11,553 bases of DNA from a virus (lineage: Duplodnaviria > Heunggongvirae > Uroviricota > Caudoviricetes), in IMG/VR virus record IMGVR_UViG_3300015179_000018, positions 1 to 11,553 of that record. One strand, given 5' to 3'. The notes beneath the pieces were generated by a model. It ran no database searches and was not told the DNA's origin. It worked only from the letters and a program-made list of their open reading frames with translations. Of this stretch, positions 1,863 to 11,301 are shown piece after piece; the first letter of the stretch is position 1; each line of letters starts with the position of its first letter. The translations under genes were made by a program, and so were the position numbers.

Positions 1863-2716
1863 GTACCATCCTGAAATGGGCGGGTAATAAAACTGCCATT
1901 ATGTCCGAACTGAAAAAACATCTTCCTGCTGGCCCGCGACTGGTTGAACCTTTCGCGGGTTCCTGTGCTGTGATGATGGAGACGGATTACCCCAGCTATC
2001 TTGTTGCGGATATTAATCCTGATTTAATCAACCTCTATAAAAAGGTTGCTGCTGATTGCGAGGCGTTTATATCTCGTGCCAGAGCTTTATTTGAGGAAGC
2101 AAACAGGGAGTTGGCTTATTACAACATAAGGCAGGAGTTTAATTACTCCACTGAAATTACTGATTTCATGAAAGCGGTATATTTCCTGTATCTCAATCGT
2201 CATGGTTACCGTGGGTTATGTCGTTATAACAAGAGCGGGCATTTCAACATTCCATACGGTAATTATAAAAATCCGTATTTCCCTGAAAAAGAAATTCGCG
2301 CATTTGCAGAGAAAGCCCAGCGAGCAACGTTTATCTGCGCCAGCTTTGATGAAACGCTGGCGATGCTGCAGGTGGGGGATGTGGTGTATTGCGATCCGCC
2401 TTATGACGGTACGTTTTCCGGCTATCACACTGACGGCTTCACTGAAGATGACCAGTATCACCTGGCATCTGTTCTTGAATATCGATCATCAGAAGGTCAT
2501 CCAGTCATTGTTTCTAACAGTGACACATCCCTGATCCGTTCGCTGTATCGAAATTTCACTCACCACTACATCAAGGCAAAACGCAGCATCGGCGTGTCGG
2601 CTGGCGAGAGTAAATCTGCAACAGAAATCATCGCTGTTTCTGGGGCGCGCTGCTGGGTGGGATTTGATCCTTCGCGTGGCGTGGATAGTTCTGCCGTGTA
2701 CGGAGTGCGTGCATGA
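1859..2716 (+). CDS. dam: DNA adenine methyltransferase, Dam/D12 class (N6-adenine, likely GATC-specific)
   Basis: ATG 1859 with GGAGG RBS (1847-1851); the ORF-track start at 1787 is upstream in the same frame. N-terminal KWAGNK and FAGSCAV (AdoMet-binding FxGxG) plus catalytic DPPY (VYCDPPYDG) are hallmark Dam-family motifs. Stop TGA 2714-2716 overlaps gpA ATG 2713. Confidence 0.9.
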
Positions 2717-5127
2717 GCCATGCTGATATGAACAACTGCAGCGGCTTTAACGAGGCCGCCGCAGCATTCTCATGGAACAGCCCGAAAAAGGCTATTAACC
2801 CTTATCTGGACCCGGCGGAAGTTGCGCCGGTTTCTGCGCTTTCAAACCTGATCACTCTGTACGCTGCCGATAACGAGCAGGAACAACTGCGCCGCGAGGC
2901 ACTGAGTGATCAGGTTTGGGAGCGTTATTTCTTTAATGAATCCCGTGATCCTGTCCAGCGCGAAATGGAGCAGGATAAGCTCATTAGCCGGGCAAAGTTG
3001 GCGCATGAGCAGCAGCGTTTTAACCCGGACATGGTCATTCTGGCAGACGTTAACGCCCAGCCTTCCCATATCAGCAGGCCGCTGATGCAACGTATTGAAT
3101 ACTTCAGCAGCCTTGGCAGGCCAAAGGCTTATTCCCGCTATTTGCGTGAGACGATTAAGCCATGTCTGGAACGGCTGGAGCATGTACGCGACAGTCAGCT
3201 ATCCACTTCTTTTCGCTTTATGGCAAGCCATGAAGGGCTGGACGGCCTGCTGATCCTGCCTGAAATGAGTCAGGATCAGGTGAAACGCCTGTCCACCCTT
3301 GTTGCTGCGCATATGAGCATGTGCCTTGATGCAGCTTGTGGCGATTTGTATGCCACCGATGACGTTAAGCCAGAAGAAATCCGCAAGACATGGGAAAAGG
3401 TGGCAGCAGAAACCCTGCGACTGGATGTCATACCGCCTGCGTTTGAGCAACTCCGCCGGAAAAGAAACCGCCGTAAACCCGTGCCCTATGAACTCATTCC
3501 GGGTTCGCTGGCGCGTATGTTGTGCGCCGATTGGTGGTACCGGAAATTATGGAAGATGCGTTGCGAATGGCGGGAAGAGCAGTTGCGTGCTGTTTGCCTG
3601 GTCAGCAAAAAAGCATCTCCCTATGTCAGCTATGAAGCCGTGATGCATAAACGTGAGCAGCGCCGTAAGTCGCTGGAGTTTTTCCGTTCTCATGAACTGG
3701 TGAACGAAGACGGCGACACGCTGGACATGGAGGATGTGGTAAACGCCAGCAGCAGCAACCCTGCGCATCGCCGCAATGAGATGATGGCCTGTGTTAAAGG
3801 TCTGGAGCTTATCGCGGAAATGCGCGGTGACTGCGCCGTTTTCTACACCATCACCTGTCCGTCACGTTTCCATTCCACGCTAAATAACGGCAGGCCCAAC
3901 CCGACCTGGACAAATACGACGGTAAGACAAAGCAGTGATTATCTGGTCGGCATGTTTGCTGCATTTCGTAAGGCGATGCACAAAGCCGGATTGCGCTGGT
4001 ATGGCGTGCGGGTGGCTGAGCCGCATCATGACGGTACAGTTCACTGGCACCTGTTGTGTTTTATGCGCAAAAAAGATCGCCGCACCATTACTGCTTTGTT
4101 GCGTAAGTTTGCCATTCGTGAAGACCGCGAGGAGCTGGGTAATAACACGGGACCACGCTTTAAGTCTGAGCTGATAAACCCGCGCAAAGGTACGCCAACA
4201 AGCTACATCGCGAAATACATCAGTAAGAACATTGACGGGCGTGGTCTGGCTGGCGAGATCAGCAAGGAAACGGGTAAATCCCTGCGTGATAACGCTGAAT
4301 ACGTTAATGCCTGGGCGTCTCTGCATCGTGTTCAGCAATTCCGCTTCTTTGGCATTCCGGGGCGTCAGGCTTACCGTGAACTGCGATTGCTGGCTGGTCA
4401 GGCGGCAAGGCAACAGGGGGACAAAAAAGCAGGTGCGCCGGTACTGGATAACCCGCGCCTTGATGCAATCCTGGCTGCTGCTGATGCTGGTTGTTTTGCC
4501 ACCTACATCATGAAGCAGGGCGGCGTACTGGTTCCCCGCAAATATCACCTCATCAGAACTGCTTATGAAATCAACGAAGAACCGACCGCATATGGCGATC
4601 ACGGTATTCGTATTTATGGCATCTGGTCACCCATTGCAGAGGGCAAGATCTGCACTCATGCGGTGAAGTGGAAAATGGTTCGTAAGGCCGTTGACGTTCA
4701 GGAGGCGGCAGCTGACCAGGGCGCTTGCGCCCCTTGGACTCGTGGCAATAACTGTCCCCTTGCTGAAAATTTGAACCAACAAGGGAAAGACAAATCAGCT
4801 GATGGGGACTCCAGAACGGATATTACCCGTATGAATGACAAGGAGTTGCACGATTACCTGCACAGTATGAGCAAAAAAGAGCGCCGGGAACTGGCTGCAA
4901 GGTTACGCCAGGTGAAACCGAAACGGCGTAAAGACTACAAACAGCGAATTACAGACCATCAGCGACAGCAGCTCGTCTATGAACTGAGGTCCAGAGGATT
5001 TGATGGCAGCGAGAAAGAGGTCGATTTACTCCTTCGCGGCGGCAGTATTCCGTCAGGAGCAGGCCTGCGTATCTTCTATCGGAGCCAGCGTTTGCAGGAA
5101 GATGACAAGTGGCGGAACCTGTATTAA
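2713..5127 (+). CDS. A: Rolling-circle replication initiation endonuclease, P2 gpA family
   Basis: 804 aa. HUH motif ([10 protein letters not shown]) and paired active-site tyrosine motif (YIAKYISKN) typical of P2 gpA-type Rep proteins. Follows dam in a coupled operon, as in P2-like phages. Confidence 0.9.
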
Positions 5128-5479: not shown

Positions 5480-5713
5480 ATGCGCATTGAAATAATGATC
5501 GATAAAGAGCAGAAGATTAGCCAGTCTACACTGGACGCCCTTGAATCCGAGCTTTACCGCAATCTGCGCCCCCTGTATCCCAAAACGGTAATTCGTATCC
5601 GCAAAGGTAGCTCTAATGGTGTGGAACTGACCGGACTGCAACTGGACGAAGAAAGAAAACAAGTGATGAAAATTATGCAGAAGGTGTGGGAAGACGACAG
5701 CTGGCTGCATTAA
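5480..5713 (+). CDS. DinI-like protein (SOS/RecA modulator family; Tum C-terminal-like)
   Basis: 77 aa starting MRIEIMIDKEQKIS...LDALESEL...VWEDDSWLH; closely parallels E. coli DinI (MRIEVTIAKTSPLP...IDALAGEL...TWESADDWF) from memory. RBS GAGGTGA 6 nt upstream. Start is an internal ATG of ORF-track ORF 5408-5713. Confidence 0.85.
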   Translation: MRIEIMIDKEQKISQSTLDALESELYRNLRPLYPKTVIRIRKGSSNGVELTGLQLDEERKQVMKIMQKVWEDDSWLH

Positions 5714-5872
5714 GAAACGTTGCTGGCGTCTGAACTTGCTTCTGGCGTCAGCAAGGTTGAACAACGAGTACAGTGAGGCGTTAGGTGTGGCGTTTATTTG
5801 ATGAGTGAACGCCCGTTCTGCGACAGGTTCGGAGATTAAGGTTGAAACTACGGGAAAAATACCATCTTTTTC

Positions 5873-6298
5873 CTACTTAATTGAGTCCAGTAACAAGTTA
5901 CAGTTACTCTCATTGTAGAGAGAACGAGCAATTAGTGTTACCTGCTTTCCATTCATTCCCGGCTTATCCCATAACACAGCTTCTTGCGACGCCACAAATT
6001 CAGCATAATCAATTATGCGTTGTTCGTGATCTGGTTCCTCATAGCCAAAGTATGAGAGCGCATCGTTGTAAGCGTGGTAAGCTGCTTTCTGTAATATCTT
6101 GATATCGGCTGTAGGTACTTGCTCCGTGTAGCTAGGATCTAATTGTGTGCTACTGCCATAGAATGCACATGAAAGGTAAGATATTGATTTCTGTTGAGCT
6201 TTAGTTCCTTTCTCATAGTTTTTAGCTGTTACCGCCTGAACTGGGACGCTAACAAAGCTTGCAACCAGAATTAAAATTAATACGTAAAAGCTTTTCAT
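5873..6298 (-). CDS. Secreted/periplasmic protein of unknown function with N-terminal Sec signal peptide (141 aa)
   Basis: N-terminus MKSFYVLILILVASFVSVPVQA-VTAK: positively charged n-region, hydrophobic core, AxA-like cleavage site (VQA), no lipobox Cys. RBS GAGG upstream on the minus strand. Gene is visibly AT-richer than flanking phage genes. Confidence 0.7.
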   Translation of the reverse strand: MKSFYVLILILVASFVSVPVQAVTAKNYEKGTKAQQKSISYLSCAFYGSSTQLDPSYTEQVPTADIKILQKAAYHAYNDALSYFGYEEPDHEQRIIDYAEFVASQEAVLWDKPGMNGKQVTLIARSLYNESNCNLLLDSIK

Positions 6299-6571
6299 TT
6301 TGACCTCAGCCGAAACGTTAGAGAGACTATCGAAATTTGTAAAACCCGTGGCGATTCAGTTTGAGATCCTCCCCCTTACATGATTTTTAATCAAATATAT
6401 GCTTTTGTAAGCATACCTGTTAACCGAATTATTTATTTTTAGAGATCTTCCGACATACTGATTATGCCCGCTGAGGAGTTCACCTTGCGTAAAGTCCGAT
6501 TCGCTTTACTCGTCTGTGCATGTCTATACTGCATGAGATTGCATGATCGTTTGAGGATCGTTTTTGCTAAG

Positions 6572-6596
6572 GCCCGCCAGTTCTGGCGGGCTTTTG
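6572..6596 (+). terminator. GC-rich hairpin followed by T-run (intrinsic-terminator-like), + strand
   Basis: gcccgcca-gttc-tggcgggc perfect 8-bp stem followed by ttttg. No obvious upstream + strand gene; may terminate an uncharacterised transcript or be part of the cos/packaging region. Confidence 0.45.
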
Positions 6597-6640
6597 CGTA
6601 GATCATGCACCTGCATGAAAACCACTACATAAAGCGGGCA

Positions 6641-6659
6641 GGCGTGGCGGGGATACGAG
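6641..6659. other. Candidate cos (cohesive end) site of the P2/186 type
   Basis: GGCGTGGCGGGGATACGAG at 6641-6659 closely resembles the 19-nt cohesive ends I recall for P2 (GGCGAGGCGGGGAAAGCAC) and 186 (GGCGTGGCGGGGAAAGCAT). It forms a GC-rich island in an AT-rich intergenic region between the replication side and the portal/terminase side. Confidence 0.45.
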
Positions 6660-6811
6660 CGCGCGCTAAGTCATATAAGAGTTATATATTGATTTGATTG
6701 CTGGACATGCATACAGTATCGCTCTATCATCTAATAAATCTTAGAGTATTTGACAATGTTTGGATAAAATGGAACCTAACTTATTCATAATCCGCTAAAC
6801 AGGGATGTCAG

Positions 6812-7726
6812 ATGCCATACCAATTGGTAGAGCTTAGCCCCGTAGCTAACGATCTTGAACAGTTAGGAACCAAAGAGAAGTTTTGGTTCTATTTCTCCGA
6901 TGACACTGTAAATTTGCAGTTGTTTAAGTACTCTAGGCCAGGTACTGGCGAGCATTGGTCTGAAAAGTGTGCTGCTGAGTTATGTCATTTGCTTAACATT
7001 CCACATGCTAGCTATGATTTGGCGCGATACAATGGTCGATTCGGTGTGGTGACTCAGAATATCATTCCATCTGGTTTCCGGATGGTAATGGGAAATGAAG
7101 TGCTTCACAGTTCGACATTCGATTATCCTGGGCCTTTACAAGCCGGGGAAAAGCCGGTAAGGGTCAGAGAACACACTGTCACAAGGGTATTGGGTTGTTT
7201 GGATAGGGAATCTATCAAGCCTCCTCCGAGTGTATATGATCTAACCGGGCTAAATGCAGCAGATGTATTTTGTGGATATTTGATGCTCGATGCACTTGTG
7301 AGTAATCAAGATCGCCATCATGAAAATTGGGCGATCATGCTTAACAATGAAACTGGTGAGCAGTTTTTGTGTCCAACATACGATCATGCCGCTAGTTTAG
7401 GAAGGGAGATGTTAGATGATGAGCGTAACGAACGGCTTAATACTAAAGATAAAAATCGACAAATCCCATGTTTTGTAAGAAAAGCTCGCTCTGAGCTATT
7501 CAAAGCAAAAACTGATAAAAAGCCCTTGCTGACCGTTGAAGCATTTCAACATGCAGTTGAAGGGAGAGTTGCCGCTCGCGACCATTGGTTAGGTAAGTTG
7601 AGCGTTTTAACAGAAGATTCCATTACAGATGTGTTTAACCAAGTGCCTTCATCGTGTATATCCGACAGTGCACGTAGATTTGCAACGTTAATGGTAATGG
7701 AAAATCGCAGAAGGTTACTAGAATGA
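6812..7726 (+). CDS. HipA-family-like Ser/Thr protein kinase core (HipT-like, lacking HipA N-terminal subdomain); candidate toxin/defence effector
   Basis: 304 aa. Gly-rich loop LGTKEKF (res 18-24) resembles the HipA P-loop (VAGAQEKT). Catalytic-loop-like SNQDRHHENW (res 164-173, nt 7301-7330) fits the N-x-D-x-H-x-x-N pattern of HipA/CtkA kinases, with downstream YDHAAS as a putative metal-binding Asp. RBS AGGGA before ATG 6812. Stop TGA overlaps the next ATG (ATGA at 7723-7726). Confidence 0.6.
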   Translation: MPYQLVELSPVANDLEQLGTKEKFWFYFSDDTVNLQLFKYSRPGTGEHWSEKCAAELCHLLNIPHASYDLARYNGRFGVVTQNIIPSGFRMVMGNEVLHSSTFDYPGPLQAGEKPVRVREHTVTRVLGCLDRESIKPPPSVYDLTGLNAADVFCGYLMLDALVSNQDRHHENWAIMLNNETGEQFLCPTYDHAASLGREMLDDERNERLNTKDKNRQIPCFVRKARSELFKAKTDKKPLLTVEAFQHAVEGRVAARDHWLGKLSVLTEDSITDVFNQVPSSCISDSARRFATLMVMENRRRLLE

Positions 7727-8463
7727 CTAATACAAACTCCGTTTACGTCGCATGGCAGGCACCAGATACCAGAGACTGGCATGTTGTTGGTAACTTGCAA
7801 GAGCGCAAATCGGGGTATGTTTTCAGGTATACCAAAGGTGCTCTTAAATCTACTAAATTTACAAAGTTTAGCGGCATGAGTGATGTTCGTGAAACTTATG
7901 TTTCGGAAGAATTGTTTCCTCTTTTTAAAAATCGCCTTTTATCACCGAGACGTCCAGAGTATCCGAGTTTCATTAAATGGCTTGGATTTGAAGAAGATAA
8001 GGTAAATCCTATCGATATTCTTGCTCGCTCGGGAGGCTTACGAAGCACTGATCAGCTGCAGATTTTCAAAAAAATTGATGTTGATTCTGATGGTAACTTT
8101 GAGCATTTTTTCTTCTTACATGGACTTGGTTACTTAAATAGCTTAGCTAATGCTCGTGTATCTGAATTGAAACCGGGGCAAATTTTGCGTCTTTGCTTGG
8201 ATCTTCAAAATGAATACGATGGGGATGCTGTTGTCGTTCGTGCAGATAAACCAGCTGAAATCGTTGGTTACTGCCCCAGGTATTTAAGTAATGATATCAA
8301 GAAGATGTTATTGGATGATCCAAAATCAATCACTTTAACGGTCGAAAAGATTAGCGATGATGCTCCTCATAACTATCGGTTATTATGTAAATTATCAGGA
8401 GTACTAAGCCAAGCCTGTCAATCGACGCTGATTCCTCAGGATGAGTTTGAACCTATTGAGTAA
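7723..8463 (+). CDS. Kinase-partner protein: N-terminal HipA-N/HipS-like region plus C-terminal HIRAN-like domain (tentative)
   Basis: 246 aa, translationally coupled to the kinase gene. C-terminal segment GLGY...LRLCLDLQNEYDGDAVVVRADKPAEIVGYCPRYLSNDIKKMLLD parallels the HIRAN signature (VGLRYY...LQRDPNNPYDKNAIKV...VGHLKKELAGALAYIMD). The N-terminal 110 aa (VYVAW..VVGNL..YVFRY..LFPLFKNRLLSPRR..ILARSGG) loosely resembles the HipA N-terminal subdomain. Both by eye only. Confidence 0.6.
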   Translation: MTNTNSVYVAWQAPDTRDWHVVGNLQERKSGYVFRYTKGALKSTKFTKFSGMSDVRETYVSEELFPLFKNRLLSPRRPEYPSFIKWLGFEEDKVNPIDILARSGGLRSTDQLQIFKKIDVDSDGNFEHFFFLHGLGYLNSLANARVSELKPGQILRLCLDLQNEYDGDAVVVRADKPAEIVGYCPRYLSNDIKKMLLDDPKSITLTVEKISDDAPHNYRLLCKLSGVLSQACQSTLIPQDEFEPIE

Positions 8464-8471
8464 ATGAAGAA

Positions 8472-8497
8472 AAGCCACCAAACGGTGGCTTTTCTTA
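8472..8497. terminator. Bidirectional intrinsic terminator between the convergent cargo operon and portal gene Q
   Basis: aagccacc-aaac-ggtggctt hairpin (8472-8491) with T-rich tract on the + strand (tttctt) and, on the reverse complement, ttttctt after the same stem. Lies exactly between the stop at 8463 (+) and the stop at 8498 (-). Confidence 0.6.
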
Positions 8498-9535
8498 TTA
8501 TGGGACTATATCTAGCGAGTAGGTATTAAACTGTATCGCCTCCTTGCCAAGCCAATCATTCATCTCCTGTAATCGCTTTTGTAGTGGCATTAGTTCATTT
8601 CGCACAAAAACTCGACTCGCCTTCTCTACATCCCCAAACCCACCGACATTATTAGGCATAATCCCCATCATCTGAGGCGGTACGCGGTGTGCAGCCATCA
8701 TGTCGTCCCGGCTCACGTTCTTGATGTTCAGAAATTCATCTTTCGCTGCGACTTCTGACAACGGGATGATCTGAAGCCCGTCCTTTTTGCCGTTAGGCGA
8801 GTACATAAACAGGTTGCGGAAGTTGCCAGGGCCTTTGGCGCTTTTCATCGCGTTGCGGAGGTTGTTCACATCTTCCTGGTTCTGCGCGGCGTCGGTCATA
8901 TACATGATGAAGCCTGCATGACTGCCGTTAATGTAATACTTGCGGCGGAACAGCGTGGCAGACTCGTTGAGCAGGGCGGATGGAATAGCAGAAAGATAAC
9001 CGGGCAGGCCGTAGATCTCCTGGTTGATGTCCGGTTCCATCAGATGAAAGATGCTGCCTTTCGTGAACTGATATGGCTGCGTGGTCATACCGTATTGCAC
9101 AAACCAGTAGGTATCCAGGTCTAACCCGCGTCGGGTGTATTTTGCCAAGGCAGGTTCAAGGGCGATAACTTCACCGAAGCGGTTCGTGCGTTTCTCCAGG
9201 TAGGCGTTACCAAATACCAGATAGTCCTGCACAAAACGCGAAAAAGCCTGCTGGCTGAGCAGCGGGTGAGGGATGTAGGTGCTGGTCAGAATGTTGCACT
9301 TTACTGCAATCGGGGAACTATGATGAACGGCAGCGCGGAAGGTGCGCGCCAGTCCGTCAAAGCTGACGGGCGGCTCATACCAGCGGTCCATCTGTACGCA
9401 TTCCACATAATCCAGCAGTTCTCGGCGGTCCAGAACAGGAACGGGATCGCCGAAGCTGAATGCTTCGGCTGTAGTTTGACTTTTAAGCTGGATCTGTTTC
9501 GTCGCCGCAGCGCGGTTCTTCTTACTCTTTCCCAT
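8498..9535 (-). CDS. Q: Portal protein (P2 gpQ family)
   Basis: About 345 aa, minus strand, immediately downstream of and overlapping (TGATG) the terminase ATPase gene, the conserved P2 P-Q arrangement. ATG at 9533-9535 with GGAG RBS; the ORF-track start at 9538 is a TTG one codon upstream. Confidence 0.88.
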   Translation of the reverse strand: MGKSKKNRAAATKQIQLKSQTTAEAFSFGDPVPVLDRRELLDYVECVQMDRWYEPPVSFDGLARTFRAAVHHSSPIAVKCNILTSTYIPHPLLSQQAFSRFVQDYLVFGNAYLEKRTNRFGEVIALEPALAKYTRRGLDLDTYWFVQYGMTTQPYQFTKGSIFHLMEPDINQEIYGLPGYLSAIPSALLNESATLFRRKYYINGSHAGFIMYMTDAAQNQEDVNNLRNAMKSAKGPGNFRNLFMYSPNGKKDGLQIIPLSEVAAKDEFLNIKNVSRDDMMAAHRVPPQMMGIMPNNVGGFGDVEKASRVFVRNELMPLQKRLQEMNDWLGKEAIQFNTYSLDIVP

Positions 9536-11301
9536 CAAAAAATCTCCACAATATTGCTGGTATTGGCGGATTCGCCCTGCAGCGGTTCGTTAAACAGTGC
9601 GTGCATCGTTGCCCAGGCCAGATCGGCGTGGCTGGCTTCTTCGCTGCGGCTGGCTTCATAGGTCGGGCGGTTGCCACTGGCGGTGGTGGCGCGACGGATT
9701 GCCATAAAGGACTGCGCTATGTCGGTGTGTCCGGCGTCAAACTCCAGACGGCGGTGGCTGATAATGTCGTAGGCCTTGAGTACCAGGGCGTTTTTAACGT
9801 TGGGGTTGTAGACAAACTCCCGGACGGCAGGAAAAAACGCTTTCACGTTCTCGTAAACCCCGTGACCAACGCCGGTTGAGTCGATACCGATATAGGTCAC
9901 GTTGTACTGTTCGGTCAGTTTTTTGATGGCGTCAGCCTGGGCGCGGAAGTCCATTCCGCGCCACTGGTGACGCTCAAGAATGCGGAACTTACCGCCCGGC
10001 ACGGCTGGCGGCGCCACCACCACGCATCCGGCGCTGTCGCCGTTCTGCGTACCTTTCGCCGGGTCATATCCGATCCACACTTCGCGCCAGCCAAACGGGC
10101 GCAGGGCCAGTGCATGAAAGTCGGTCCAGACTTCCCAACTGTCCACCATGCACGCCTGCAGCTCGCTGAGTGGGAACACAGACGCGAGATCGTCCACGAA
10201 CTCACACATCAGCAGGTTTTGGTATTCGTCCGGGCTGTACTCCATGCGCAACTGGTCGAGGTCGAACAGGTTACAGCCGCCGCGCACCGCATCTTCCACA
10301 GTGACTATCTGGCGGTACTGCCCGTCTGCGCACAGCAGGCCGGGGGCCAGATTGCTGTGGGACAGGTCGATGTCCACCTTATCGGCTTTGTTGCGCCCTC
10401 GGTTGAACAGCGCACCGGACCAGAACGGATAAGCACTGTGTGTCAGGCTGGATGGCGTGGAAAAATAGGTTTGTCGCCATTTTTTGTGAATAGCCATACC
10501 GGAAGCCACTTTGCGCAGCTCCTGGAATTTCGGTATCCAGAAATATTCATCCAGATACAGGTTGCCGTGGTAACTCTGGGCCGTGCGGGCATTGGTGCCG
10601 AGGAAGTACAGCGTGGCCCCGTTAGGAAGCACCATCGGATCGCCTTTCAGCTCCACCTCCACTTCTTTGGCGAAGTCGATGATGTACTGCTTAAAGACGT
10701 GGGCCTGAGCCTTGCTGGCGGAAAGGAAAATCTGGTTACGCCCGGTTAGCAGGGCGTCAATCAGGGCTTCACGGGCAAAATAGAAGGTCGCGCCGATCTG
10801 GCGTGACTTCAGCAGGTTGCGGATGCGGTTGGTTTTTCCGGCTTCCCACCAGTGGCGCTGGTAGTTGAACATGGAGGAATGGAAGATTTCTTCCAACTTC
10901 TCAATCTGTTCATCGGTGAAAACGTTCTTTTCCGGCTGACGGCGCGGGCCTTTGTTGCGGTTGGCGACGTTAGGGTTTAAGTCGGCTTCGTTGCCGCCAT
11001 TGTTAAACTTGCCGATCCGCGCATGGCGCTCCGACTGGCGCGCCAGCAGGTCAATCTCTTTGAAATCTTTCCCTTCTTTGTGCTCCTTCATAATGAGCTG
11101 GCAGTAGCGTGCGGCGGTGGTGAGCTGCATCTGATCCAGCGGCCCATAGTCACCCCACTTGTCGCGTTTTTTCCAGCTGTGAACGGTTGCAACTTTCTCG
11201 CCCAGCATTTCAGCAATGCGAGCTACGCGGTATCCCTGAAAGTACAGCAGCATGGCCTGCCGACGGGGATCGAGATCTGCGGGTGTCAGTGTGGTGTTCA
11301 T
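9535..11301 (-). CDS. P: Terminase large (ATPase) subunit, P2 gpP family
   Basis: 588 aa, minus strand, divergent from the O start. N-terminal HTH-like segment (LLYFQGYRVARIAEMLGEKVATVHSWKKR) typical of terminase DNA-binding N-termini; size and position match P2 gpP. The true start could be the internal ATG at 11251-11253 (M17). Confidence 0.88.
   Translation of the reverse strand: MNTTLTPADLDPRRQAMLLYFQGYRVARIAEMLGEKVATVHSWKKRDKWGDYGPLDQMQLTTAARYCQLIMKEHKEGKDFKEIDLLARQSERHARIGKFNNGGNEADLNPNVANRNKGPRRQPEKNVFTDEQIEKLEEIFHSSMFNYQRHWWEAGKTNRIRNLLKSRQIGATFYFAREALIDALLTGRNQIFLSASKAQAHVFKQYIIDFAKEVEVELKGDPMVLPNGATLYFLGTNARTAQSYHGNLYLDEYFWIPKFQELRKVASGMAIHKKWRQTYFSTPSSLTHSAYPFWSGALFNRGRNKADKVDIDLSHSNLAPGLLCADGQYRQIVTVEDAVRGGCNLFDLDQLRMEYSPDEYQNLLMCEFVDDLASVFPLSELQACMVDSWEVWTDFHALALRPFGWREVWIGYDPAKGTQNGDSAGCVVVAPPAVPGGKFRILERHQWRGMDFRAQADAIKKLTEQYNVTYIGIDSTGVGHGVYENVKAFFPAVREFVYNPNVKNALVLKAYDIISHRRLEFDAGHTDIAQSFMAIRRATTASGNRPTYEASRSEEASHADLAWATMHALFNEPLQGESANTSNIVEIF

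What the first reader, a model, noticed from the sequence alone, without database searches (positions are those of the whole stretch)
6300..6811. cos-like 19-mer sits between two cargo modules, so accessory genes lie on both sides of the packaging site
GGCGTGGCGGGGATACGAG (6641-6659) matches the P2/186 cohesive-end sequence at most positions and lies in a long AT-rich non-coding stretch. One cargo gene (the secreted protein, 5873-6298) is on the replication-gene side and the kinase operon (6812-8463) is on the portal side. In P2 the portal gene ends close to the left cohesive end, so about 1.8 kb of cargo inserted between cos and Q is notable. It also means that in a linear virion genome the kinase operon would be at the very left end, among the first DNA to enter the cell.
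Basis: partly seen in the sequence, partly recalled or inferred. Interest (0 to 1): 0.5.

Follow-up and report, generated by a model that had tools for sequence, protein, structure and literature searches.

The report
Prophage cos site between two cargo slots
The 19-base sequence is very probably the real DNA-packaging (cos) site of a P2/186/Fels-2-type E. coli prophage, and accessory genes on both sides of it are the usual, already described layout for this phage group, not an oddity.

Summary
GGCGTGGCGGGGATACGAG is at 6641-6659. It matches the annotated cohesive ends of 186 at 15/19 and P2 at 14/19, and is identical to the putative cos of Fels-2-type phages. It lies in a sharply bounded ~153-bp conserved island (6516-6668), shared with 53-63 related loci, whose TGCAT motifs sit at the same offsets from the cut as in P2 and 186.

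Two variable slots flank the island. The left one (5790-6515) holds a 141-aa putative secreted protein. The right one (6669-8497) holds a HipA-like kinase plus HIRAN pair (hipIN type, PADLOC candidate PDC-M03).

The "notable" reading does not hold. In 66 related prophages, 82% have more than 600 bp between cos and the portal gene (median 1.7 kb), and 23 of 50 have cargo on both sides. The cos-to-portal slot was described by Dodd & Egan in 1996, and the gpA-gpQ interval is the published P2-like defence hotspot (Rousset 2022).

In E. coli the two cassettes assort independently: 21 and ~101 genomes, 1 with both, 1.7 expected. The operon would indeed lie at the left end of virion DNA, but "first DNA to enter" depends on packaging polarity, which I could not establish.

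Verdict: real, ordinary, already known.

The parts
6641..6659 (+). 19-nt cohesive-end sequence (cos core), GGCGTGGCGGGGATACGAG. The cut positions are inferred by homology.
   Evidence: sequence; 15/19 to 186 and 14/19 to P2; identical in Fels-2 and 813R9, same register as P2 and 186; chance expectation 0.03; annotated as putative cos in SEN8 and Cartapus.
6516..6640 (+). Conserved 125-bp cos arm on the gpA (right-end) side. It carries TGCATG motifs at 6517, 6530, 6540 and 6612 (+) and 6604-6609 (-). It is the candidate terminase recognition region.
   Evidence: conservation starts abruptly at 6516 and is shared by 53-63 loci. TGCAT offsets -124, -111, -101, -29 and inverted -36 are the same in the window, P2 and 186.
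6660..6668 (+). Short conserved GC-rich flank (CGCGCGCT) on the portal side of the cohesive end; conservation stops after it.
6566..6597 (+). Conserved G+C-rich hairpin followed by a T-run inside the cos island. It looks like an intrinsic terminator for rightward (gpA/DinI-side) transcription.
   Evidence: -24.6 kcal/mol, z = -5.5; inverted repeat I1; conserved.
5790..6515 (.). Left (gpA-side) variable cargo slot.
   Evidence: none of 80 related loci share it; present in about 101 of 5426 complete E. coli genomes. GC 0.405.
5873..6298 (-). 141-aa cargo gene with a signal-peptide-like N-terminus and no family match; it is transcribed away from cos.
   Evidence: translation; no Pfam, PADLOC or NCBIfam hit; annotated as a hypothetical protein (WP_000834899.1) in RefSeq.
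6394..6423 (-). Promoter-like site (TTAACA-18-TATATT) reading leftwards toward the 141-aa gene.
   Evidence: This is a consensus match only.
6669..8497 (.). Right (portal-side) variable cargo slot.
   Evidence: only L015 shares it; present in 21 of 5426 E. coli genomes. GC 0.406.
6702..6730 (+). Promoter-like site (TGGACA-17-TATCAT) reading rightwards toward the kinase operon.
   Evidence: This is a consensus match only.
6812..7726 (+). HipA-homologous small kinase (HipI-like; PADLOC PDC-M03A).
   Evidence: E = 2e-122. HipA_C at E = 3.6e-4, below the Pfam cutoff. DRHHEN and YDH motifs. 'HipA domain-containing protein' in some RefSeq records.
7723..8463 (+). HIRAN-domain partner protein (HipN-like; PADLOC PDC-M03B). 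Its start overlaps the kinase stop by 4 bp.
   Evidence: HIRAN at E = 1.1e-13. E = 3.4e-93; hipIN architecture as described by Gerdes 2021.
8468..8493 (.). Bidirectional terminator hairpin (AAAAGCCACC-AAAC-GGTGGCTTTT) between the convergent HIRAN and portal genes.
   Evidence: sequence; every cassette carries a different hairpin at this position. P2 tQ and 186 tW occupy the same position.
8498..9538 (-). Portal protein (gpQ homologue).
   Evidence: Phage_portal at E = 3.7e-19; 128 relatives.
9535..11301 (-). Terminase large (ATPase) subunit (gpP homologue).
   Evidence: Terminase_6N, Terminase_6C and Terminase_5.
2713..5127 (+). Replication endonuclease (gpA homologue), the left boundary gene of the hotspot.
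   Evidence: Phage_GPA at E = 7e-127.
5480..5713 (+). DinI/Tum-like gene, the last conserved backbone gene before the left slot.
   Evidence: DinI at E = 1.3e-22; the RefSeq coordinates map to 5480-5713.

Best explanation
Window 6516-6668 is the cos site of a Fels-2/186-type P2-family prophage of E. coli. It has three parts: a 125-bp arm on the gpA side carrying an array of TGCATG motifs and a terminator-like hairpin, the 19-nt cohesive-end sequence, and 8-9 conserved GC-rich bases on the portal side.

By homology with P2 and 186 (inferred, not shown here), the phage terminase (gpP plus the small subunit) recognises the arm. It makes staggered nicks that leave 19-nt 5' overhangs, so the virion chromosome would begin at 6641.

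The cos island sits inside the known gpA-gpQ cargo hotspot and splits it into two slots. The cassette in each slot has its own outward-facing promoter-like site. The right slot's operon ends at its own terminator hairpin next to the portal stop; no terminator was identified for the left cassette. Neither cassette's transcription would cross cos, and both could be expressed from the integrated prophage.

The cassettes are swapped between related prophages, most likely by homologous recombination in the conserved flanks (DinI/gpA, the cos island, portal). This makes the two slots assort independently. The present right-slot cargo is a hipIN-type kinase plus HIRAN pair, a candidate toxin-antitoxin or anti-phage system. 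The left-slot cargo is an uncharacterised putative secreted protein.
For: Shown here:
- The sequence and its identity to the annotated P2 and 186 cohesive ends.
- Alignment of the flanks in the same register.
- TGCAT motifs at identical offsets in the window, P2 and 186.
- Conservation that starts at 6516 and stops at 6667-6668, with unrelated sequence on both sides.
- Identical or near-identical cos in 66 related loci lying between the portal and gpA genes.
- Intact portal and terminase genes next to it, and a full head-gene set in the near-identical LR-71-1 prophage.
- Cargo on the portal side in 82% of loci and on both sides in 46%.
- Three E. coli configurations: same left with different right, empty left with same right, and both the same.
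- Cassette counts of 21 and about 101 genomes with 1 joint occurrence, against 1.7 expected if independent.
- Cassettes 99.7-100% identical on backbones only 92-97% identical.
- Divergent promoter-like sites and a bidirectional terminator.

From the literature:
- The cos-to-gpQ position is described as a hotspot, citing Dodd & Egan 1996 (PMC5694545, PMC6868368, PMC7826664).
- The gpA-gpQ interval is a defence hotspot (PMC9122126).
- Defence loci in P2 are swapped rapidly (PMC13586616).
- The hipIN architecture (PMC8262856).
Against: No virion DNA ends have been mapped for this prophage. As far as I could find, none have been mapped for any Fels-2-type phage either: the SEN8 and Cartapus cos features are labelled 'putative'. 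The exact nick positions are therefore inferred from P2 and 186. The last six bases of the 19-mer differ from P2 and 186 at four positions, and position 14 varies among relatives. The role of the TGCATG array is an inference from conservation only. The promoter-like sites are no more frequent than in shuffled sequence (4 found, 6.6 expected). Recombination in the flanks is inferred from breakpoints and identity patterns, not observed. Anti-phage activity of this hipIN/PDC-M03 pair has not been shown; PDC-M03 is a candidate class.
Confidence: 0.9

Rival explanations
1. The island is a relic cos in a defective prophage. It is conserved by descent but is no longer cut or used for packaging, so 'left end of the virion genome' has no physical meaning for this element.
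For: The window covers only 11.5 kb, so intactness of the whole prophage was not shown. Many P2-like prophages in genomes are defective (PMC13586616).
Against: The island is 95-99% identical among E. coli relatives and is sharply bounded by unrelated DNA, which is the pattern expected under selection. The portal, terminase and gpA reading frames are full length. The near-identical LR-71-1 prophage carries repressor, cII, replication, scaffold, capsid, small terminase and head-completion genes in the normal order.
Confidence: 0.07
2. One reading: cargo is placed right after cos so that it sits at the leading end of injected DNA and is expressed first on entry, for example as an early counter-measure in a newly infected cell.
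For: The kinase operon's promoter-like site begins 43 bp after the last base of the cohesive end, and the ATG lies 152 bp after it. The long conserved arm lies on the opposite (gpA) side of the cut. If that arm is a cosB-like terminase anchor, as in lambda, the gpA end would be packaged first and the portal-side end last. Under last-in-first-out ejection the portal-side end would then be ejected first. This is inference by analogy only.
Against: The polarity of P2-family packaging was not established here. My unverified recollection of the older literature is that the right end is the tail-attached one, which would reverse the conclusion. Last-in-first-out has itself been questioned for lambda (PMC10287942). 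Cargo is as common on the gpA side, as with P2 old/tin and in 28 of 50 loci, so no single end is favoured. Hotspot cassettes that have been tested protect lysogens from the integrated state, where cos is internal.
Confidence: 0.1
3. The 19-mer resemblance to P2/186 cos is coincidental GC-rich sequence in an intergenic region, and the true packaging site is elsewhere.
For: Only 14-15 of 19 bases match, and the 3' third of the 19-mer differs.
Against: The chance expectation is 0.03 per window for the 13-mer core. About 55 bp of flanking core and motif positions out to -124 are shared with P2 and 186. The location between gpA and the portal gene is the same in 66 loci.
Confidence: 0.01

Closest known systems
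cos sites of coliphages P2 and 186 (19-nt 5' cohesive ends; the 55-bp core of Ziermann & Calendar 1990)
   Same: The first 13 bases of the cohesive end are identical to 186. The flanking core aligns in the same register. TGCAT motifs sit at the same offsets (-124, -111, -101, -29). The position between the gpA side and the portal/terminase genes is the same.
   Different: Four or five of the last six cohesive-end bases differ (ATACGAG against AAAGCAT or AAAGCAC). This lineage adds a GC-rich terminator-like hairpin and two GATC sites in the arm. The portal gene is 1.8 kb away instead of about 170 bp.
Putative cos of Fels-2-type phages (Felsduovirus: Fels-2, SEN8, RE-2010; also E. coli phages 813R9 and Cartapus)
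   Same: The 19-mer is identical and the island is 95-97% identical. Accessory genes lie between cos and the portal gene, and often between DinI and cos as well.
   Different: The cassette content differs: Fels-2 has a 1.7-kb hypothetical gene, SEN8 a hypothetical gene plus HNH, Cartapus DUF4145, and 813R9 a Hypoth_Ymh-domain gene.
Retron Ec67/Ec86 insertion slot between cos and the packaging-gene terminator of a 186-related prophage (Dodd & Egan 1996)
   Same: It is the same slot. The foreign DNA begins a few bases to the right of the cohesive end and runs to the terminator next to the portal gene.
   Different: The cargo here is a kinase/HIRAN pair rather than a retron. Here the terminator is cassette-specific, and divergence extends into the last codons of the portal gene. 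The primary paper could not be read.
P2-like gpA-gpQ cos-proximal defence hotspot (Rousset et al. 2022; Moura de Sousa et al. 2026); P2 old/tin
   Same: The bounding genes are the same. Gene arrangements are highly variable, swapping is rapid, and cassette GC is low. The left-slot gene faces away from cos, like old/tin in P2.
   Different: Those studies treat gpA-gpQ as one locus. Here it resolves into two slots separated by the cos island that assort independently. This is a refinement, not a new kind of feature.
hipIN toxin-antitoxin type (Gerdes et al. 2021) / PADLOC candidate system PDC-M03
   Same: A kinase of about 300 aa homologous to HipA is followed by an overlapping gene encoding an N-terminal domain plus a C-terminal HIRAN domain. 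Both PADLOC profiles match strongly.
   Different: Function is untested. Pfam HipA_C is below its cutoff, and there is no sequence match to any solved structure.

Membership tests
P2-family cos site | A cohesive-end sequence of the GGCG(A/T)GGCGGGG... type, 19 nt long | tested here: met
   15/19 to 186, 14/19 to P2, first 13 bases identical to 186. It occurs once in the window, against 0.03 expected.
P2-family cos site | A conserved core of about 55 bp around the cohesive end, in the same register as P2 and P4 | tested here: met
   The alignment with the P2 and 186 junctions shows conserved columns from about -30 to +27. P4 itself was not aligned.
P2-family cos site | Location between the replication (gpA) end of the genome and the portal/terminase genes | tested here: met
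   the arrangement is the same in 66 loci.
P2-family cos site | Cleavage by terminase that produces 19-nt 5' overhangs, and sufficiency of the site for packaging | not testable with these tools
   This needs virion DNA end mapping or a cosmid transduction assay.
gpA-gpQ defence hotspot of P2-like phages (Rousset 2022) | The locus is bounded by gpA and gpQ and lies next to cos | tested here: met
gpA-gpQ defence hotspot of P2-like phages (Rousset 2022) | Gene content is highly variable between otherwise conserved prophages | tested here: met
gpA-gpQ defence hotspot of P2-like phages (Rousset 2022) | The cargo has anti-phage activity | tested here: inconclusive
   The right cassette matches the PADLOC candidate PDC-M03 A and B. 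I found no experimental validation. The left gene has no match.
cos-to-terminator insertion slot (Dodd & Egan 1996) | Foreign DNA starts immediately to the right of cos | tested here: met
   Conservation ends at 6667-6668, which is 8-9 bp after the cohesive end.
cos-to-terminator insertion slot (Dodd & Egan 1996) | Foreign DNA ends at the conserved terminator downstream of the portal gene | tested here: inconclusive
   A terminator is present at 8468-8493. It differs between cassettes, and homology resumes only inside the portal gene at about 8510. The primary paper was not available.
hipIN (HipA-homologous kinase plus HipS-HIRAN antitoxin) | A small HipA-homologous kinase with catalytic motifs | tested here: inconclusive
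   Pfam HipA_C scores 20.7 bits, below the 30.5-bit cutoff. DRHHEN and YDH motifs are present, with the motif assignment from my own knowledge. PDC-M03A matches at E = 2e-122.
hipIN (HipA-homologous kinase plus HipS-HIRAN antitoxin) | A downstream partner with a C-terminal HIRAN domain | tested here: met
   Pfam HIRAN at E = 1.1e-13, residues 127-228.
hipIN (HipA-homologous kinase plus HipS-HIRAN antitoxin) | A HipS-like N-terminal domain in the partner protein | not tested
   No profile or structure comparison was run for residues 1-120.

The most novel reading that the evidence does not exclude
The cos island may be more than a passive divider. It could act as the recombination anchor, or cos cleavage could supply the double-strand ends, that creates two independently assorting cargo slots. 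[quoted passage not shown] A second possibility is that the conserved TGCATG array, together with the two Dam (GATC) sites in this dam-encoding lineage, forms a methylation-sensitive terminase recognition element, comparable to the GATC-regulated pac site of P1.
Probability: 0.15. Interest if true: 0.5.

Novelty: already known. Interest (0 to 1): 0.15.

Why it matters
The practical value is for annotation. The result fixes the cos site and therefore the virion genome ends for this prophage type. It also delimits two cargo slots with base-level boundaries (5790-6515 and 6669-8497). It flags a hipIN/PDC-M03 kinase-HIRAN pair and an uncharacterised putative secreted protein as hotspot cargo that could be tested for anti-phage or lysogenic-conversion activity. 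It does not change current understanding: cargo around cos in P2-like phages is established. The only small addition is that the published single gpA-gpQ hotspot behaves as two independently assorting slots separated by the conserved cos island.

Tried and rejected
- **Packaging polarity.** I tried to learn which DNA end is tail-proximal in P2, 186 and P4. The primary papers (Chattoraj & Inman 1974, Ziermann & Calendar 1990, Dodd & Egan 1996) and the Christie & Calendar review are not held. Papers that cite them do not state the polarity, and one search only matched 'P22'. Two literature searches and one paper look-up failed because a term had fewer than 3 characters.
- **Hidden RNA genes.** An Rfam scan of 5700-8600 gave one hit, BSnc120 at 32 bits against a 114-bit gathering score. 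It lies on the terminator hairpin, so I rejected it as chance.
- **The 55-aa ORF at 6439-6606 (-).** It has no family match and straddles the island boundary, so it is only partly conserved. I treat it as spurious.
- **The 141-aa protein.** There is no hit in Pfam, PADLOC or NCBIfam, so its function is unknown beyond the signal-peptide-like N-terminus.
- **The kinase.** It has no sequence match in the PDB and no NCBIfam match.
- **The terminator scan.** It did not report the 6566-6597 hairpin. Folding shows the hairpin is strong.
- **TGCATG count.** The whole-window count is not above chance (11 found, 10.8 expected). Only the clustering and the conserved offsets are meaningful.

Full report
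**1. The observation**

The sequence GGCGTGGCGGGGATACGAG is at 6641-6659 on the + strand. The window is a segment of a P2-family prophage. Its genes are:

| Feature | Coordinates | Strand |
|---|---|---|
| Dam methylase | 1787-2716 | + |
| Replication endonuclease gpA | 2713-5127 | + |
| DinI/Tum-like gene | 5480-5713 | + |
| 141-aa ORF | 5873-6298 | - |
| Non-coding stretch (513 bp) | 6299-6811 | . |
| HipA-like gene | 6812-7726 | + |
| HIRAN-domain gene | 7723-8463 | + |
| Portal | 8498-9538 | - |
| Large terminase | 9535-11301 | - |

I read the annotated cohesive ends of P2 (GGCGAGGCGGGGAAAGCAC) and 186 (GGCGTGGCGGGGAAAGCAT) from their reference records. The window's 19-mer matches them at 14/19 and 15/19, and the first 13 bases are identical to 186. 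The 13-mer core occurs once in the window, against 0.03 expected by chance.

The description 'AT-rich non-coding stretch' is only partly apt. The 513-bp interval has GC 0.417, but the conserved cos island inside it has GC 0.536. Only the parts belonging to the two cassettes are AT-rich, at 0.396 and 0.322.

**2. The whole cos site is homologous, not only the 19-mer**

I built circularised junctions of P2 and 186 and aligned them with the window, Fels-2 and phage 813R9. The cohesive end falls in the same register in all five. The flanks are conserved, for example CATAAAGCGGGCA|GGCG upstream and (C/T)GCGCGC downstream, and the 19-mer is identical in Fels-2 and 813R9.

Comparison with phage records shows that only window ~6516-6675 is conserved among about 100 P2-family phages. 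blastn against 80 related genomic loci places the boundaries at 6516 and 6667-6668. Between 53 and 63 loci cover the island, none cover the DNA to its left, and one covers the DNA to its right. The per-position profile agrees.

Within the 125-bp arm, TGCAT motifs lie at -124, -111, -101 and -29 from the cut, with an inverted copy at -36. These offsets are the same in the window, P2 and 186, and five of the window's eleven TGCATG hexamers fall within 101 bp. A strong hairpin followed by a T-run (6566-6597; -24.6 kcal/mol, z = -5.5) is conserved inside the island.

The SEN8 record starts exactly at the 19-mer and labels it 'putative cos site'. Cartapus does the same. So the identification as cos is secure by homology. 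The exact nick positions are inferred, because I found no experimentally mapped ends for this lineage.

**3. Cargo on both sides of cos is the norm in this lineage**

Fels-2, 813R9, SEN8 and Cartapus all carry one or two genes between cos and the portal gene, and Fels-2 and SEN8 also carry one between DinI and cos.

I surveyed 80 loci encoding relatives of the window's portal, one genome per species. A strict cos match was found in 66:
- The portal-to-cos distance has a median of 1668 bp.
- It is 300 bp or less in 10 loci and more than 600 bp in 54 (82%).
- Among the 50 loci where gpA was also found, 23 have cargo on both sides, 19 on the portal side only, 5 on the gpA side only and 3 on neither.

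The survey is biased toward Fels-2-like phages because of the query used. That is the lineage the window belongs to, so the comparison is the relevant one.

**4. The layout is already in the literature**

[quoted passage not shown] It cites Dodd & Egan 1996 and Nakayama 1999 (PMC5694545). [quoted passage not shown] Two further papers repeat this (PMC6868368 and PMC7826664).

Rousset et al. 2022 define the cos-proximal gpA-gpQ interval as a defence hotspot, with 1,650 gene arrangements in 18,150 E. coli loci (PMC9122126). Moura de Sousa et al. 2026 document rapid swapping of these loci (PMC13586616). P2's own old and tin genes occupy the gpA-side slot and are transcribed away from cos.

**5. 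Fine structure and dynamics in E. coli**

The cos island is present in 1,278 of 5,426 complete E. coli genomes. The right cassette is in 21 genomes and the left cassette in about 101. The two occur together around cos in one genome, strain LR-71-1. Independent assortment predicts 21 x 101 / 1278 = 1.7.

Matches that carry only the right cassette begin at window 6513-6518. Matches that carry only the left cassette end at 6667-6677. Both sets of breakpoints are the edges of the island.

Three examples show the combinations:
- SCU-106 has an empty left slot with the kinase operon on the right.
- CUVET17-972 has the same 141-aa gene on the left, with an S1-peptidase pair on the right.
- LR-71-1 has the same two cassettes as the window.

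The cassettes are 99.7-100% identical between genomes whose backbone genes are 92-97% identical. So the cassettes moved more recently than the backbones diverged. The most economical mechanism is homologous recombination in the conserved flanks, with the cos island acting as the middle anchor. This is an inference.

In one distant relative (L015, an Enterobacteriaceae MAG) the same operon occupies the same slot at 81% identity, which is similar to its backbone. The association of this operon with the slot is therefore not recent.

**6. Expression logic**

Promoter-like sites flank the island and face outward. One is TTAACA-18-TATATT at 6423-6394 on the - strand, toward the 141-aa gene. The other is TGGACA-17-TATCAT at 6702-6730 on the + strand, toward the kinase operon. 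These are consensus matches only and are no more frequent than in shuffled sequence.

The kinase operon converges on the portal gene. A perfect bidirectional terminator separates them at 8468-8493, and each different cassette carries its own hairpin at that position. Together with the hairpin inside the island, this suggests that transcription is kept from crossing cos. This too is an inference.

**7. The cargo**

The pair at 6812-8463 matches both components of the PADLOC candidate system PDC-M03, at E = 2e-122 and 3e-93. The second protein has a Pfam HIRAN domain at E = 1e-13. The first has a sub-threshold HipA_C hit and carries DRHHEN and YDH motifs, which I recognise from my own knowledge as the HipA catalytic and Mg-binding signatures.

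The architecture fits the hipIN type of Gerdes et al. 2021: a small HipI kinase followed by HipN, which combines a HipS-like domain with HIRAN (PMC8262856). HipA-family kinases have been validated in other defence systems such as HipAD. I found no test of this particular pair.

The 141-aa protein has an N-terminus resembling a Sec signal peptide (MKSFYVLILILVASFVSVPVQA) and no family match.

**8. 'Very left end' and 'first DNA to enter'**

If the nicks are where homology places them, the virion chromosome starts at 6641. The kinase operon's promoter-like site would then begin 43 bp after the last base of the cohesive end, and its ATG would lie 152 bp after it. The 'very left end' part of the claim follows.

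Whether that end enters the cell first depends on which end is packaged last. I could not obtain the relevant primary literature, and the citing papers do not state it. Two indirect arguments point in opposite directions:
- By analogy with lambda cosB, the long conserved arm on the gpA side would make the gpA end the first packaged, and so the portal-side end the first ejected.
- My unverified recollection of the older literature is that the right (gpA-side) end is the tail-attached one.

Strict last-in-first-out ejection has also been questioned, even for lambda. I therefore leave this claim untested. Hotspot cargo of this kind is known to act from the integrated prophage, where cos is internal.

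**9. Verdict**

The arrangement is ordinary for this phage lineage and already described. The one modest refinement is that the published gpA-gpQ hotspot consists of two slots separated by the cos island, and in E. coli they assort independently.

Noticed in passing
window 6517-6617: Four direct copies and one inverted copy of TGCATG lie in the cos arm. The TGCAT offsets from the cut (-124, -111, -101, -29, inverted -36) are the same in the window, P2 and 186, which belong to three genera. They are candidate terminase recognition elements. Two of them form a 9-bp inverted repeat, TGCATGATC/GATCATGCA, that brackets the hairpin.
   Followed up: partly
window 6545-6563: A direct repeat, GATCGTTT x2, gives two well-conserved Dam (GATC) sites in the cos arm of this lineage, which encodes its own Dam methylase (1787-2716). 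The corresponding arms of P2 and 186 have no GATC there. Methylation-sensitive packaging, as at the P1 pac site, is conceivable but untested.
   Followed up: partly
window 6654 (position 14 of the 19-mer); loci L010-L089: Position 14 of the cohesive-end sequence varies among relatives (A, T, G or C), while almost every other position of the 19-mer and its flanks is invariant.
   Followed up: no
window 6566-6597: A strong G+C-rich hairpin with a T-run (-24.6 kcal/mol, z = -5.5) is conserved inside the cos island, 45-75 bp before the cut. It probably terminates rightward gpA/DinI-side transcription before cos. 186 has a weaker, T-less palindrome at the aligned position, and its annotated t95b terminator lies further upstream.
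   Followed up: partly
window 8498-9538 compared with L092 (E. coli LR-71-1): The portal gene is only about 92% identical to its closest E. coli relatives, even in LR-71-1, which shares both cassettes at 99.7-99.8% and the terminase at 97%. This suggests a recombination boundary inside or next to the portal gene. The last portal codons also differ between cassette types.
   Followed up: partly
window 8468-8493: A perfect bidirectional terminator (AAAAGCCACC-AAAC-GGTGGCTTTT) lies between the convergent HIRAN and portal genes. A sub-threshold Rfam hit (BSnc120, 32 bits against a 114-bit gathering score) falls on it and is chance.
   Followed up: yes
L091 5494-6584 (E. coli CUVET17-972); L007 128-2142 (SEN8); L009 162-860 (Cartapus): Other occupants of the cos-to-portal slot are an S1-family peptidase plus a hypothetical gene, a hypothetical gene plus an HNH endonuclease, and a DUF4145 protein. 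These are further untested hotspot cargo.
   Followed up: no
L069 and L072: A 4.5-kb contig binned as 'Bacillota bacterium' encodes a portal 97% identical to the window's. A contig labelled Chryseobacterium carries a 186-type cos (GGCGTGGCGGGGAAAGCAT) with 2.3 kb between cos and the portal gene. Both look like contamination or mis-binning of enterobacterial prophage DNA.
   Followed up: no
window 6439-6606 (-): A 55-aa ORF overlaps the left edge of the cos island. It has no family match and is only partly conserved, so it is probably not a gene.
   Followed up: partly
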